Part shown: positions 60,001 to 64,000 of the stretch, one piece after another
How the letters are laid out: the number at the start of each line of letters is the position of its first letter
How positions within the stretch are numbered: the stretch's first letter is position 1
Assembly (NCBI GenBank): GCA_046546105.1
Contig: JBKGYN010000001.1
Coordinates: 52,441-116,440, forward strand
Direction: 5' to 3'
Length of the DNA stretch: 64,000 nt
From: Candidatus Woesearchaeota archaeon
GTDB taxonomy: Archaea; Nanobdellota; Nanobdellia; Woesearchaeales; SKGA01
Position numbers: made by a program

Positions 60001-63000
60001 AGCCATCATCTCTGACGGCTGGCTCGCCATAATCTTTTTATATCTGTGCGCACCTGTGAGTCTTGGCCTGGTGAAAAAATCCTTCCGAGCTTTTTTGCAG
60101 GCCACAGTATTGAGGGGTTTTGTTCCCATGAATATCGCTTTTCCTTCAACACGAAATCCTGATGATGAATCATTAGGGCTCGGACCTGTCTCTCTGGATC
60201 TTCTGAAGTTGCGCTATCTTAACAGGGATGCTGACGGTAACATCGCTGAGACTCCTCTTGCCATGATGAAACGTGTAGCATCTAACATCGCCAAGGCTGA
60301 CGATGACTACGGCGGTGATAGTGGCGCTGCTTATGAGGACTTCTTGTATCATCTCAAGCGCCTGCATTTTGTTCCTGCATCCCCTATTCTCATGAACGCT
60401 GGTAACAAACTGCAGTTTCTCTTCTCCGATCACGCGTTGGATGTTCCTGATAGTATCGAGGATATCTTTGAAGTTCTCAAGCTCGCCGCTTCCATCCAGC
60501 AGCACGGTGGAGGTCTTGGTTTCAGCTTTTCGAAAATCCGTCCGTTCCACGATGACGTTTCCGGCATGAAAAAAGTCGCTTTCGGTCCTTTGAATGTCAT
60601 GAAGATTTTTGACACATCCTTTAACGCCATACTGCAAGGCGGTCGTCGAAGCGGTGCGAACATGGCTGTGCTTCCCATCTCACATCCTGACATCTTATCT
60701 TTCATCGAGGCGAAGCGCGATCTCGGCGTCCTGCAGAACTTCAACCTTTCCGTTGCTGTCACTGACGATTTTATCAAGGCGGTCCGTGAGGATTCCTCTT
60801 TTGACCTTATCAACCCTCGTAACGGCGAGGTTATTCACACGGTCCCTGCTCGTTCCTTGTTTGACGCAATTACCGAAAACGCTTGGAAGACTGGCGATCC
60901 GGGACTTATCTTTATCGACGCTATGAATAAGGCTTACCCGTTTGATGATAGGGATGTCTTGTGTACTGGTGCTTGCGGTCAGTACGAGCTAGAATCTTTT
61001 GAGGGGGTCCCTTATGCCCATGTAAATCTGGCTCGTATGGTCAAGAAAAACACTGACGGTTCTCTTTCTGCCGATACGGATCTCTTGCGGAGCGTGGTTT
61101 CAAGCGCTGTTCACTTTCTTGATAACGCTGTTGACATGCACAAGTACATCGACGCTTTCTTTGAACAGCAGTCTAAGCGTTCCCGCAAGATAGGTCTTGG
61201 CGTGATGGGCTTTGCAGAACTCTTGTTCATGCTTGAGATCCCTTACGGCTCTCAGGAATCCCTGGATCTCATCGACACGATCATGTCTATCGTCCGCGAC
61301 GAATCGCGCAAGGCCTCTGGTGAGCTTGCTCGGGCTCGCGGTGTTTTCCCTCTCTTTGAAAGATCCTCCTGGCATCATCCGATGCGTAATGCCACTATCA
61401 CTTCAATCGCTCCTACTGGCTCGACGAGCCTTCTTGCCGGCACTTCACAGTCCATTGAGCCTGTCTTCGCTCTTTCCTTCACGACAACGACCAGTGATGG
61501 TGATGAGTTCACTGTGCTCAATAAAGCATTCAAGAATGCTGTCGATGCCCTTGCTATCGACCGCACGGCTAAGATCCAGCTCCAGTTTGTCGATTCGCTG
61601 CAGAACATCGACTGGCTTGATGACTCGTTCAAAGAGGTTTTTCGCACTGCGATGGATATCCCGCCCGAAGATCATCTTGCTGTCATGGCCGCGTTCCAGA
61701 AGTACGTTGATAATTCGATCTCAAAAACCATCAACCTGCCTAACAAGGCTTCTATCGATGATATCGAACGTATCATGCTCTCCGCTCACGAGACCGGTTG
61801 TAAGGGTATCACTATCTACCGTGATGGTTGCCGTGGTGATCAGGCCATCATGACCAAGCGCCAGACAAGGCTTTCTGCCTTTGAGGCTCGCTAGGAGGTC
61901 CTGTCCAACCGCTCGTTTGATATATATGTTGTGAAGGTTTTTTTGTGATTTGATTATTTATATAAATGAAGGTGGTGCTATTGCTAAATATAGTGGATTG
62001 AAAACATGTAAAACGCTATGTGTAGTGTTGTAGTGCTTTTTTTCACTGTTATGATATGTGTGTGAAGGTGTGTTACATGGTACAGGATGTATTGACTAAA
62101 TCTCTTGATTGGAACACTCAGGATGTAGAGCTTGTCAAGACGCTTCAGGGTGAAGGTGTCCCGCTCACTGGGCTTGCCAGGTCTATTCTTAATAACTCGA
62201 CGCATCTCAAGGAGATGGGTCTTATCATCTTTCTCGATCGCTACGCGCTCAAGGATCGGAGCCCTTTGCAGAAAGGCGATCTTGTCGTTGCGGTCTCGAA
62301 AGACCATCCGAAGTATCCTAAAAAGGATCTTGGTGTTATCGTCGATTTTGATGGTGATTTTAATGTCAAGTTGCGCATGATAACTGGGATGTATAAGGAT
62401 GGTGGTGATCTTCTCAGTGTTGCGAAGAAGAAGTGCGACAAACCGGTAGAGAGTATTTACGAGGCTTATGCTCGTGTCGCTCGCGCGGTCGCAAGCGTTG
62501 AAGAGGATGATGTTCGTGAGGAATATGAGGTTGAATTCCGTAACGCTCTACTCAATGGTTATATACAGCCTGCTGGTCGTATCATGGCTGGTGCTAACGT
62601 TGATGAGCAGGGTCAGTACACCTCTAATCTGACACTCTATAATTGTTACGTGCTTCCATCTCCTCGTGATTCCCGTGGTTCCATCGTCAGGGATACCTTG
62701 TACCAGATGGTCGAGATCATGAGTCGTGGTGGTGGTGCTGGTATCAACTTGAGCACTCTGCGTCCTCGTTATGCTCATGTCAAGGGCGTCAACGGTAAGT
62801 CGAGCGGCGCTGTCTCTTGGGGTAATCTTTATTCAAACGCTACTGGTCTTATCGAGCAGGGTGGTTCTCGTCGCGGGGCTCTCATGCTCATGCTGGCTGA
62901 CTGGCATCCTGATGTTGAGGAGTTCATCGCATCAAAGCATAAGATCGGCTTTCTTGATAACGCTAACATCTCCGTTCTCATCTCTGATGAGTTCATGGAT

Positions 63001-64000
63001 GCTCTCAAGCGTGATGCTGAATGGAATCTCGAGTTCCCCGACCTTGACGATCCTGAGACCAAGAAGCTCTATGACACCGAGTGGGATGGCGATCTCATGA
63101 AGTGGAAGCGTGATGGTCGTAAGACTGCCGTATTCAAGACCGTGCGTGCTCGTGACTTGTGGGAGAAGCTCATCGGATCTGCTTGGAAGAGTGCCGAGCC
63201 CGGCATCGTCTTCATCGGCCGGTATAATGATTTTAGTAACTCCTGGTATTACAATCCTATCATCTGCACTAACCCTTGTGGAGAGCAAGGCCTTCCTCCC
63301 TGGGGTGTCTGTAACCTCGGTCACTTGGCGCTCAATAACTTCGTCTATAAGAATGGCGAGGATGAGATCGGTCCTCTCTATGATTTTGATTGGGAGGCTC
63401 TCGAATCCTCGACAAAGACTCTGGTTCGTTTCCTTGATGACGTCATCGACCTGACACCCTACATTTTCGAGGAGAATAGGAAGAACCAGCTTTCTGAACG
63501 CCGTGTCGGTTGTGGCACGCTTGGTCTTGCTGAAGTGCTTATTCGCATGCGTCTTCGCTTCGGCAGTGATGAGGCTGACGCGTTCATCGACAAGCTCTAT
63601 GAACAGATTGCTGTGACTGCATATGAGGCTTCTATCGCTCTTGCTGAAGAGAAGGGATCGTTCGAGAAGTTCGATGCTGAGAAGTTCCTCCAGAGCGCTT
63701 TCATGAAGCAGATGCCTGAAGAGGTCCGTGAGAAGGTTCGTGAGTACGGCATCCGTAACGTCACCTTGACCACTCAAGCACCTACAGGCACTGTCGGTTC
63801 CATGCTTGGCACCTCCACTGGTATAGAACCATTTTTCGCTTTCAAGTATTACCAGCAGAGCCGTCTGGGCTTCCACGAGATCGAGATCGATCTCGCTAAG
63901 GATTACAAGAGAGCTGACGGCACTCTCCCTGACTTTTTCGTCAGCGCGATGGAGCTCGGTCCTCGCGATCACATCAAGGTTCAGGCGACCATCCAGAAGT

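What the first reader, a model, noticed from the sequence alone, without database searches (positions are those of the whole stretch)
60128..64000. Tandem class II ribonucleotide reductase paralogs; the upstream copy has lost the N-x-C-x-E and redox-cysteine residues
Two full-length NrdJ-like genes sit head to tail, sharing GGG(L/A)G, RRSGA/SRRGA and WK(T/S)(G/A)(D/E)PG(L/I)(I/V)FI blocks and the C-terminal ISKTINLP...ITIYRDG region. The downstream gene (62077-) has the canonical CTNPCGEQ, i.e. the Asn-x-Cys-x-Glu triad. It also has the NCYV cysteine in the segment aligned to the first redox-active Cys (aligned by eye against the paralog). The upstream gene (60128-61894) has LCTGACGQ at the aligned position: Asn is replaced by Gly and Glu by Gln, while the thiyl Cys is retained. 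The segment aligned to the redox Cys is FSDHALD, with no Cys. In all RNR classes the Asn and Glu of this motif and the first-strand Cys are needed for 2'-reduction. The upstream copy therefore looks like a conserved, intact, probably expressed RNR pseudoenzyme (regulatory subunit, allosteric decoy, heterodimer partner or neofunctionalised enzyme) rather than a decaying pseudogene. I do not recall such a paired pseudo-RNR as a described feature of archaeal genomes.
Basis: partly seen in the sequence, partly recalled or inferred. Interest (0 to 1): 0.7.

Follow-up and report, generated by a model that had tools for sequence, protein, structure and literature searches.

The report
Conserved reduction-dead NrdJ paralog family
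Next to a normal vitamin-B12-dependent ribonucleotide reductase gene, this tiny-genome (DPANN) archaeon keeps a second, strongly conserved copy that retains the radical cysteine but has lost every residue needed to reduce a ribonucleotide, so it must serve another, still unknown B12-linked purpose.

Summary
Gene 60128-61894 (588 aa) is a full-length class II RNR homologue. Aligned to T. maritima NrdJ, it keeps the thiyl Cys (C283). It has Asp for the first redox Cys, Val for the second, Gly for the Asn and Gln for the Glu, and it has no Cys-rich C-terminal tail. The downstream gene (62077 to the window end, cut at codon 641) has all catalytic residues.

The odd copy is not decaying. About 50 sequence clusters from Woesearchaeota/Nanobdellota MAGs carry the same C-T-[GS]-x-C-G-Q motif. 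dN/dS is about 0.05 and dN equals that of the real reductase. The AlphaFold model matches TmNrdJ (TM 0.88).

In all 11 contig lineages with readable flanks it lies beside a complete nrdJ of either of two unrelated subtypes. A cobalamin adenosyltransferase gene is nearby in the eight lineages whose contigs reach far enough. One further lineage has the adenosyltransferase fused to the odd copy. Related DPANN "second NrdJs" show intermediate erosion of the same residues.

It cannot be a canonical reductase. My best guess (about 0.45) is a non-reducing accessory protein of the neighbouring reductase that binds AdoCbl and a nucleotide. A neofunctionalised radical enzyme (about 0.3) is not excluded. 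I found no description in the literature available here.

The parts
60128..61894 (+). nrdJ-prime: 588-aa class II RNR homologue that lacks the reduction residues
60035..60046 (+). TATA-like box (TTTTTATATCTG) about 85 bp upstream of nrdJ-prime. Similar boxes occur upstream of orthologues
   Evidence: inference only
60374..60385 (+). Apical phosphate loop P-A-S-P (aa 83-86). It derives from the NDP-type P-N-S-P loop; A84 is invariant in the family
   Evidence: motif meaning from PMC8365446
60422..60442 (+). Strand beta-A, F-S-D-H-A-L-D (aa 99-105). D101 replaces the first redox Cys (Tm C134) and H102 replaces F135
60965..60982 (+). Finger loop T-G-A-C-G-Q (aa 280-285). G281 replaces Asn, C283 is the retained thiyl Cys and Q285 replaces Glu
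61001..61021 (+). Strand beta-F, E-G-V-P-Y-A-H (aa 292-298). V294 replaces the second redox Cys (Tm C333); P295, Y296 and H298 are fixed
61409..61423 (+). Distal phosphate-binding loop A-P-T-G-S (aa 428-432), retained
61808..61831 (+). Strand beta-J, I-T-I-Y-R-D-G-C (aa 561-568), retained. Family-specific Cys568 replaces the usual Ser
61862..61882 (+). Family-specific conserved C-terminal peptide Q-T-R-L-S-A-F (aa 579-585). It is predicted to be flexible and replaces the Cys-rich redox tail
61895..62076 (.). 182-bp AT-rich spacer containing a T-run and a TATA-like TTTATATAAATG (61957-61968)
61982..62028 (+). Two NrdR-box-like 16-mers (61982-61997 and 62013-62028) separated by a 15-bp linker, 49 bp before the canonical nrdJ start
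   Evidence: architecture as described in the abstract of PMC13584703; conserved in L081, L082 and L100
62077..64000 (+). Canonical nrdJ (type A), 641 of about 778 codons, cut by the window end
62566..62580 (+). Partner apical loop Q-P-A-G-R (the P-A-G-R motif, which predicts an NTP reducer)
   Evidence: PMC8365446
62641..62652 (+). Partner N-C-Y-V; C190 is the first redox Cys
63268..63312 (+). Partner finger loop T-N-P-C-G-E (N399, C401, E403), followed by the second redox Cys C412

Best explanation
Shown: gene 60128-61894 encodes NrdJ-prime, a complete and well-folded class II RNR homologue under strong purifying selection. It keeps the thiyl-radical Cys, the finger-loop Gly, the distal phosphate loop, most of loop 2, and strand beta-J, which in class II RNRs lines the adenosyl pocket. 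It has lost both active-site redox cysteines, the finger-loop Asn and Glu, the loop-2 Arg that clamps the substrate, and the whole C-terminal redox tail. It therefore cannot reduce ribonucleotides by the known mechanism.

Shown: it belongs to a small family in Woesearchaeota/Nanobdellota-type DPANN archaea. The family descends from the NDP-type 'second NrdJ' of these genomes. It is always encoded beside a complete nrdJ and close to a cobalamin adenosyltransferase (ATR), and in one lineage it is fused to that enzyme.

Inferred working model: NrdJ-prime still binds adenosylcobalamin and a nucleotide but does not turn the nucleotide over. It serves the neighbouring reductase as a non-reducing accessory protein. 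It could take AdoCbl from the adenosyltransferase and hold or hand it on. It could also sense nucleotides through its remodelled former active and specificity sites, contacting partners through its conserved flexible C-terminal peptide.

Confidence is split. That it is a selected, reduction-incompetent NrdJ paralogue: about 0.9. That its role is accessory rather than a new catalytic activity: about 0.45.
For: Loss of reduction residues. No redox tail.

Fixation of C-T-[GS]-x-C-G-Q in all 50 family clusters.

Selection: dN/dS 0.054, with dN equal to that of the partner.

Fold: TM 0.88 to TmNrdJ.

Linkage:
- It is adjacent to a complete nrdJ in 11 lineages. The partner is type A (P-A-G-R loop, Zn-finger tail) or type B (Ribonuc_red_2_N + TSCPD, P-N-S-P loop).
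- A PduO-type ATR gene is present in every locus with enough flank, and a full ATR domain is fused to the variant in two independent samples.
- A non-homologous CobA-type ATR sits next to the related eroded paralogues.

Graded erosion in sister lineages: Tm position 134 is I, V, G or C and position 333 is A, C, S or T, while the Cys and Glu of the finger loop stay. This suggests the reductant positions are simply dispensable.

Loop-2 Lys202 and Arg208 equivalents are relaxed.

The C-terminal peptide is conserved yet has low pLDDT, as expected for a docking motif.

The type-A partner clade paired with the variant lacks the ATP-cone that its nearest relatives carry.
Against: No physical interaction has been tested.

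The pocket segments are the most conserved part of the family (entropy 0.42 against 1.15 bits, p 2e-9). They are 3.6-fold enriched in fixed, not relaxed, substitutions (p 0.002). That pattern also fits a new catalytic or ligand-binding site.

The dimer helices alpha-A and alpha-B stay the same whether the partner is type A or type B. This argues against a classical alpha-alpha-prime heterodimer through the four-helix bundle.

In the window and its close relatives, the canonical gene has its own NrdR-box operator in the spacer, and the variant has a separate promoter-like box. The two genes are therefore probably not co-regulated.

Much of the adjacency lies in a region of generally conserved synteny (ThiI ... 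NFACT, RsmB). Only the partner swap (L091) and the rearranged locus (L088) give independent support for linkage.

AdoCbl binding is inferred, not shown.
Confidence: 0.45

Rival explanations
1. It is a neofunctionalised, stand-alone AdoCbl-dependent thiyl-radical enzyme. C283 would still abstract a hydrogen from a diphosphate-bearing nucleotide. With no reducing cysteines, the chemistry would be redox-neutral, for example 2'-dehydration to a 3'-keto-2'-deoxynucleotide, with D101 as the acid. The gene would cluster with nrdJ and the adenosyltransferase only because all three depend on AdoCbl.
For: The thiyl Cys, G284, Q285, D101, P295 and H298 are invariant.

Pocket segments are the most constrained part and are enriched in fixed substitutions.

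The distal phosphate loop and beta-J are retained.

The ATR fusion fits a client enzyme.

The promoter is separate from the NrdR-controlled nrdJ.

The dimer helices are unchanged regardless of partner type.

From established enzymology, recalled and not tested here: E. coli R1 mutants C225S, C462S and E441Q still carry out 3'-H abstraction and water loss.
Against: Sister paralogues have variable, chemically inert residues (I, V, G, A, S, T) at the same positions. This looks like loss rather than redesign.

No candidate downstream enzyme is conserved in the locus.

3'-keto-2'-deoxynucleotides are unstable, and I know of no pathway that uses them.

The loop-2 Arg needed for canonical substrate binding is not conserved.
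Confidence: 0.3
2. It is still a ribonucleotide reductase that uses another reductant, either a small molecule such as formate or the partner's Cys-rich tail reaching in trans directly into its active site.
For: A Cys-rich domain (CRD) can act in trans between NrdJ subunits, and CRD-less second NrdJs exist (PMC5704485). The thiyl Cys and the phosphate loop are retained.
Against: The Asn and the Glu are also replaced. From recalled knowledge, formate-dependent class III enzymes keep one bottom-face Cys, whereas this protein keeps none at the aligned sites. The substrate-clamping loop-2 Arg is relaxed.
Confidence: 0.07
3. It is an ordinary pair of an NDP-reducing and an NTP-reducing NrdJ, as found in 69% of genomes with more than one nrdJ.
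For: The apical loops differ, P-A-S-P against P-A-G-R. The pattern is described in PMC8365446.
Against: The P-A-S-P copy lacks four of the five catalytic residues and has no redox tail. It also pairs with P-N-S-P partners.
Confidence: 0.03
4. It is a decaying pseudogene or an assembly artefact.
For: None beyond the missing catalytic residues.
Against: The reading frame is intact. An identical protein occurs in an independent assembly. The family has about 50 clusters. dN/dS is 0.054. The predicted fold is confident.
Confidence: 0.01

Closest known systems
Thermotoga maritima NrdJ (dimeric, NDP-reducing class II RNR; PDB 1xje, 3o0o)
   Same: Same fold (Foldseek TM 0.88, 34% identity). Shares the thiyl Cys, distal phosphate loop, loop 2 core and beta-J, and a similar length without an ATP-cone.
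   Different: C134D, N320G, E324Q and C333V. The apical loop Asn is Ala, the loop-2 Lys and Arg are not conserved, and there is no Cys-rich C-terminal domain.
Archaeal ATP-cone NDP-type NrdJs (about 700 aa; Bathyarchaeia, Methanomethylicota, Jordarchaeales; also the second NrdJ of Woesearchaeota, L048)
   Same: These are the closest canonical sequences (44-47% identity). In L048 this type occupies a comparable place, directly followed by the adenosyltransferase gene, in a locus that also holds a type-B nrdJ.
   Different: [quoted passage not shown]
Partly eroded second NrdJs of other Woesearchaeota/Nanoarchaeota (P0388-P0392, P0428, P0435)
   Same: Same lineage and same locus type: a cone-less type-A nrdJ, then the paralogue, then an adenosyltransferase. 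The thiyl Cys is kept, the Asn is lost and one or both redox cysteines are lost.
   Different: They keep the Glu, the ATP-cone and a Zn-ribbon tail. The residues at the lost positions vary. Their adenosyltransferase is CobA-type, not PduO-type.
Yeast Rnr4 (inactive paralogue of the class I small subunit, obligate partner of Rnr2) - recalled knowledge
   Same: An RNR paralogue that has lost catalytic (metal-binding) residues, is retained under selection and works with the active paralogue.
   Different: It is a different subunit (ferritin-like beta) and a different RNR class. Complex formation is proven there and untested here.
Beta-herpesvirus R1 homologues (M45, UL45) - recalled knowledge
   Same: An RNR large-subunit fold without reductase activity, kept for another function.
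   Different: They are viral, derive from class I and have been repurposed for host-cell signalling. They are not paired with an active RNR.
CRD-less second NrdJd copies (Frankia, some Alphaproteobacteria) and split NrdJa+b (PMC5704485)
   Same: An NrdJ without its own Cys-rich tail co-occurs with an NrdJ that has one. The tail is shown to act in trans.
   Different: I saw nothing indicating that those copies have lost catalytic residues; I did not inspect their sequences.

Membership tests
Functional class II ribonucleotide reductase (NrdJ) | RNR ten-stranded barrel and all-alpha domain; matches the NrdJ HMM | tested here: met
   Pfam PF02867 at 1.6e-109 and PF00317 at 1e-15. TIGR02504 scores 550 bits against a cutoff of 400. 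Foldseek TM 0.88 to 1xje.
Functional class II ribonucleotide reductase (NrdJ) | Thiyl-radical Cys at the tip of the finger loop | tested here: met
   C283 aligns with Tm C322 and is invariant in the family.
Functional class II ribonucleotide reductase (NrdJ) | Finger-loop Asn and Glu (N-x-C-x-E) | tested here: not met
   G281 (G or S across the family) and Q285 (invariant).
Functional class II ribonucleotide reductase (NrdJ) | Redox-active Cys pair on strands beta-A and beta-F | tested here: not met
   D101 (invariant) and V294 (V, I, or C in the basal member).
Functional class II ribonucleotide reductase (NrdJ) | C-terminal Cys pair or Cys-rich domain to re-reduce the active site | tested here: not met
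   The protein ends 20 aa after beta-J with ...QTRLSAFEAR. Its only nearby Cys is C568. The partner has CxxC..CxxC..CGFKGGC.
Functional class II ribonucleotide reductase (NrdJ) | Loop-2 residues that read the substrate base (Tm K202, Q203, R208) | tested here: inconclusive
   The Q203 equivalent is invariant. The K202 and R208 equivalents are variable in the family.
Functional class II ribonucleotide reductase (NrdJ) | Binds and homolyses adenosylcobalamin | not testable with these tools
   Support is indirect only. Beta-J is retained. Adenosyltransferases of two unrelated families lie adjacent. One adenosyltransferase is fused to the variant.
NCBIfam NF005401 (PRK06948) 'ribonucleotide reductase-like protein' | Score above the curated cutoff | tested here: not met
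   233 bits against a cutoff of 906.
Dual NDP/NTP NrdJ pair (PMC8365446) | Two nrdJ genes with different apical phosphate-loop motifs, both active reductases | tested here: not met
   The motifs differ, P-A-S-P against P-A-G-R, but the P-A-S-P copy lacks the catalytic residues.
Pseudoenzyme partner of an active paralogue (Rnr4-like logic) | Catalytic residues lost, gene kept under purifying selection | tested here: met
Pseudoenzyme partner of an active paralogue (Rnr4-like logic) | Forms a physical complex with the active enzyme and alters its activity | not testable with these tools
   Only gene linkage is available (11 lineages). The dimer helices do not co-vary with partner type.

The most novel reading that the evidence does not exclude
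NrdJ-prime is a working AdoCbl-dependent thiyl-radical protein with a function never described for the RNR fold. One option is a redox-neutral nucleotide-transforming enzyme, for example an NDP 2'-dehydratase. The other is a dedicated B12-loading or nucleotide-sensing subunit, which would show that class II reductases can operate as hetero-complexes together with their adenosyltransferase.
Probability: 0.3. Interest if true: 0.85.

Novelty: new variant of a known kind. Interest (0 to 1): 0.66.

Why it matters
RNRs are among the best-studied radical enzymes, and every characterised member of the large-subunit fold in cellular organisms is a reductase.

Here a genome-reduced archaeal group spends about 1.8 kb on a strictly conserved copy that keeps the radical Cys but removes all the reducing machinery. 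The copy stays linked to a real NrdJ and to the enzyme that makes adenosylcobalamin.

This offers a natural experiment on what the RNR scaffold can do besides reduction. It may show how B12 is delivered to class II RNRs, for which I know of no described chaperone. It may also show how DPANN archaea regulate dNTP supply.

There is a practical point too. Automated annotation, and the TIGR02504 cutoff, call these proteins 'adenosylcobalamin-dependent ribonucleoside-diphosphate reductase'. Counts of 'two NrdJs per genome' and of NDP/NTP pairs are therefore inflated by non-reductases.

Tried and rejected
It was useless for co-occurrence, although L048 later proved informative.

2. The metagenome scan with a degenerate CGQY...FEG pattern gave only 7 loci. 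Two of them (L094, L095) added adjacency cases.

3. The profile search of 1.84 billion representatives found no distant CGQ-type relatives outside the family. The top 'hits' P0121 and P0122 are NrdJ-NrdJ fusions with canonical residues in both halves.

4. The structural papers on TmNrdJ-AdoCbl and the RNR review were not held, so cobalamin-contact residues could not be mapped.

5. Rfam found no riboswitch or other RNA in the window.

6. No complex prediction was attempted. Only single chains can be submitted, the pair exceeds 1200 aa, and no interface scores are returned.

7. The idea that the variant replaces the ATP-cone missing from its type-A partner is only half supported. The partner clade does lack the cone, but the variant has no cone either.

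8. A classical alpha-alpha-prime heterodimer through the four-helix bundle is disfavoured, because the variant's helices do not change with partner type.

9. The pseudogene reading was rejected.
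Full report
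**1. What is in the window**

Two same-strand ORFs lie at the right end of the window. The first runs 60128-61894 (588 aa). The second starts at 62077 and is still open at 64000, with 641 codons visible. Both carry the RNR all-alpha and barrel domains. Both pass the curated NrdJ model TIGR02504, at 550 and 453 bits against a cutoff of 400. They are only 28% identical to each other.

Their best subfamily models differ: PRK08665-like for the first and PRK08115-like for the second. They are therefore members of different NrdJ subtypes, not a recent tandem duplication.

**2. Residue mapping**

phmmer against T. maritima NrdJ (1xje/1xjk) agrees with a MAFFT alignment of 46 family members, 70 canonical NrdJs and 3 partner proteins. 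The mapping is:
- Tm C134 to D101.
- F135 to H102.
- N320 to G281.
- C322 to C283 (kept).
- E324 to Q285.
- C333 to V294.
- N334 to P295.

The protein stops 20 residues after strand beta-J (...ITIYRDGCRGDQAIMTKRQTRLSAFEAR). It has no Cys pair and no Cys-rich domain.

The downstream protein has C190, N399/C401/E403 and C412. Its full-length orthologues end in CxxC...CxxC...CGFKGGC. This is the Cys-rich zinc-finger domain that re-reduces the active site in most NrdJs (PMC5704485).

The second redox Cys and the redox tail are also missing. The only inaccuracy is that the downstream gene is truncated by the window end.

**3. It is a family, not an accident**

A search of 5.8 billion proteins found about 50 clusters at 51-100% identity to the window protein (P0001-P0050). 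Most are about 590 aa. The named ones come from Woesearchaeota, Nanoarchaeota and Nanobdellota MAGs. A sharp score gap (713 to 530 bits) separates them from canonical NrdJs. Every member has C/G/S-T/I-[GS]-[ASC]-C-G-Q.

A profile search of 1.84 billion representatives found only three representatives of the family at the 50% clustering level. Among the 53 high-scoring proteins short enough to align (870 aa or less), no other carries the same substitutions.

Selection is strong. Between the window and L081, dN/dS is 0.054 and dN is 0.099. This dN is identical to that of the canonical partner and half that of the neighbouring ThiI gene. At deeper divergence the variant's dN stays far below ThiI's.

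AlphaFold2 gives pLDDT 86.6 and pTM 0.90. Foldseek places the model on TmNrdJ, including the AdoCbl complexes 3o0n and 3o0o, with TM 0.88.

**4. How the active site changed**

Of about 240 columns that are at least 90% conserved in canonical NrdJs, the family behaves as follows:
- 135 are kept.
- 31 are fixed to a different residue.
- 72 are relaxed.

I defined seven short pocket segments: the apical and distal phosphate loops, beta-A, loop 2, the finger loop, beta-F and beta-J. These segments are 3.6-fold enriched in fixed substitutions (Fisher p 0.002). They are also the most conserved part of the family, with 0.42 against 1.15 bits of entropy (p 2e-9).

Retained features:
- The thiyl Cys with its following Gly.
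- The A-P-T-G-S phosphate loop.
- Q-G-G-R-R of loop 2.
- The D-S-I-E and R-P motifs, which I recall as effector-site residues.
- G-I-T-I-Y-R-D on beta-J, which in class II RNRs lines the adenosyl pocket (PMC9531940).

Lost or relaxed features:
- The Asn of the apical loop (P-N-S-P has become P-A-S-P).
- The loop-2 Lys202 and Arg208 equivalents, which read or clamp the substrate. K202 is described in PMC13266583; the role of R208 is my recollection from work on yeast R293.

Gained features:
- Cys568.
- A conserved C-terminal peptide, Q-[TM]-[RK]-L-x-[AVS]-F. It is predicted to be flexible (pLDDT below 50).

**5. Genomic context**

In every contig lineage with readable flanks the variant is next to a complete nrdJ. 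These lineages are the window, L081, L082, L085, L100, L101, L102, L094, L095, L091 and L088.

The partner is usually type A: about 775 aa, with a P-A-G-R apical loop that predicts an NTP reducer according to PMC8365446. In L091 and L088 the partner is the unrelated type B: about 1130 aa, with Ribonuc_red_2_N and TSCPD domains and a P-N-S-P loop.

A PduO-type cobalamin adenosyltransferase gene lies one to four genes beyond the partner in the eight lineages whose contigs reach that far (L081, L082, L085, L091, L096, L100, L101, L102). The window, L094 and L095 end before that position.

In L088/L089, from two independent samples, the order is nrdR, then type-B nrdJ, then after a 9-bp gap a single ORF. 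That ORF fuses a full adenosyltransferase domain to the variant.

Much of the neighbourhood is generally syntenic (PCNA, ThiI ... NFACT, RsmB). Adjacency alone is therefore weak evidence. The partner-type swap and the rearranged, fused locus are the independent support for a functional link.

**6. Where it came from**

The closest canonical sequences (44-47% identity) are archaeal ATP-cone NDP-type NrdJs. Other Woesearchaeota carry such a protein as a second NrdJ beside a type-A or type-B nrdJ and an adenosyltransferase:
- In L048 it is fully canonical.
- In L103 and its relatives (P0388-P0392) it has lost the Asn (now Ser). Tm position 134 is I, V, G or C, and position 333 is A, C, S or T. 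The Glu, the thiyl Cys, the ATP-cone and a Zn-ribbon tail are kept. A CobA-type adenosyltransferase, unrelated to the PduO type, follows directly.
- The basal family member P0049 still has the Cys at position 333.

This gives a graded series: canonical, then partly eroded, then the CGQ family.

The type-A partners that sit next to these paralogues lack the ATP-cone. Their nearest relatives, in CPR bacteria and other DPANN archaea, carry it. One example is L104, which has nrdR, a cone-bearing nrdJ and an adenosyltransferase but no second NrdJ.

**7. Interpretation**

Shown: the protein cannot perform the canonical reduction cycle, and it is maintained by selection in a module with a real NrdJ and an adenosyltransferase.

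Inferred: it still binds AdoCbl. Three observations support this. Beta-J and the finger loop are kept. Adenosyltransferases of two non-homologous families occupy the adjacent position. One adenosyltransferase is fused to the variant.

I favour a non-reducing accessory role for the neighbouring reductase (about 0.45), either cofactor hand-over or storage, or nucleotide sensing, or both. The reasons are:
- Sister lineages tolerate chemically inert, variable residues at the reductant positions.
- The loop-2 substrate clamp is relaxed.
- A conserved flexible tail looks like a docking peptide.

The main rival (about 0.3) is a new redox-neutral radical enzyme. It is supported by:
- The very tight, remodelled pocket.
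- The invariant Cys/Asp/Gln set.
- Dimer helices that do not change with partner type.
- Apparently separate regulation of the two genes.

On regulation: the spacer before the canonical gene contains two NrdR-box-like 16-mers with a 15-bp linker (61982-62028). These are conserved in L081, L082 and L100. The variant has only its own TATA-like box.

A reductase using an alternative reductant (about 0.07), an ordinary NDP/NTP pair (about 0.03) and a pseudogene (about 0.01) are unlikely.

**8. Novelty**

Literature searches combined 'ribonucleotide reductase' with pseudoenzyme, DPANN, Woesearchaeota and 'catalytically inactive paralog'. None found a description.

Known analogies are yeast Rnr4, the herpesvirus R1 homologues, and CRD-less second NrdJd copies. 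None of these is a class II large subunit that keeps the radical Cys while losing the reducing machinery. I rate the finding as a new variant of a known kind, with interest about 0.66.

Noticed in passing
window 61982-61997 and 62013-62028: Two NrdR-box-like 16-bp partial palindromes (TGCTAAATATAGTGGA and ACGCTATGTGTAGTGT) with a 15-bp linker lie 49 bp upstream of the canonical nrdJ. The same operator-like pair occurs in the orthologous spacers of L081, L082 and L100, but not in the AT-rich relatives L085, L091, L101 and L102. No nrdR gene is present in the 64-kb window. An NrdR regulon in DPANN archaea seems little described.
   Followed up: partly
window 53738-53753: Another one-mismatch match to the NrdR-box core (TCACTAATGTTAGTGT) lies far from any RNR gene. 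On its own this is at chance level (3 matches against 1.05 expected).
   Followed up: no
L103 12364-14511; proteins P0388, P0389, P0391, P0392, P0428, P0435: These are further 'second NrdJ' proteins of Woesearchaeota/Nanoarchaeota that keep the thiyl Cys and the Glu. They have lost the Asn and one or both redox cysteines, with variable replacements. They still carry an ATP-cone and sit between a cone-less type-A nrdJ and a CobA-type adenosyltransferase.
   Followed up: partly
proteins P0121 (1600 aa), P0122 (1351 aa), P0125 (partial): These are natural single-polypeptide fusions of two complete NrdJ barrels. Both halves have canonical catalytic residues. The first half lacks a redox tail and the second carries TSCPD plus the Cys-rich tail.
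   Followed up: no
protein P0245 (671 aa): An unrelated NrdJ-like representative with Ser, Asp, Cys, Glu and Thr at the five catalytic positions and a P-G-G-R apical loop. It may be another non-reductase lineage.
   Followed up: no
proteins P0268-P0294 versus P0295-P0387; L104: The type-A NrdJ clade paired with the variant has no ATP-cone. Its closest relatives, in CPR/Patescibacteria and other DPANN archaea, have one or two ATP-cones and, in L104, an adjacent nrdR.
   Followed up: partly
window 1-64000: No tRNA, rRNA or any Rfam family was detected in the whole 64 kb. The gene order ThiI, RadC, YjbQ, HtpX and Na+/H+ exchanger upstream of the RNR pair is shared with the Nanobdellota MAG GCA_051819805.1 (L081).
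   Followed up: no
L088 12327-13094 and 14730-15635: In the locus with the adenosyltransferase-variant fusion, two metallo-beta-lactamase-fold genes with weak Anti-Pycsar (Apyc1) Pfam hits and a radical SAM gene follow directly. Their relation to the RNR module is unknown.
   Followed up: no
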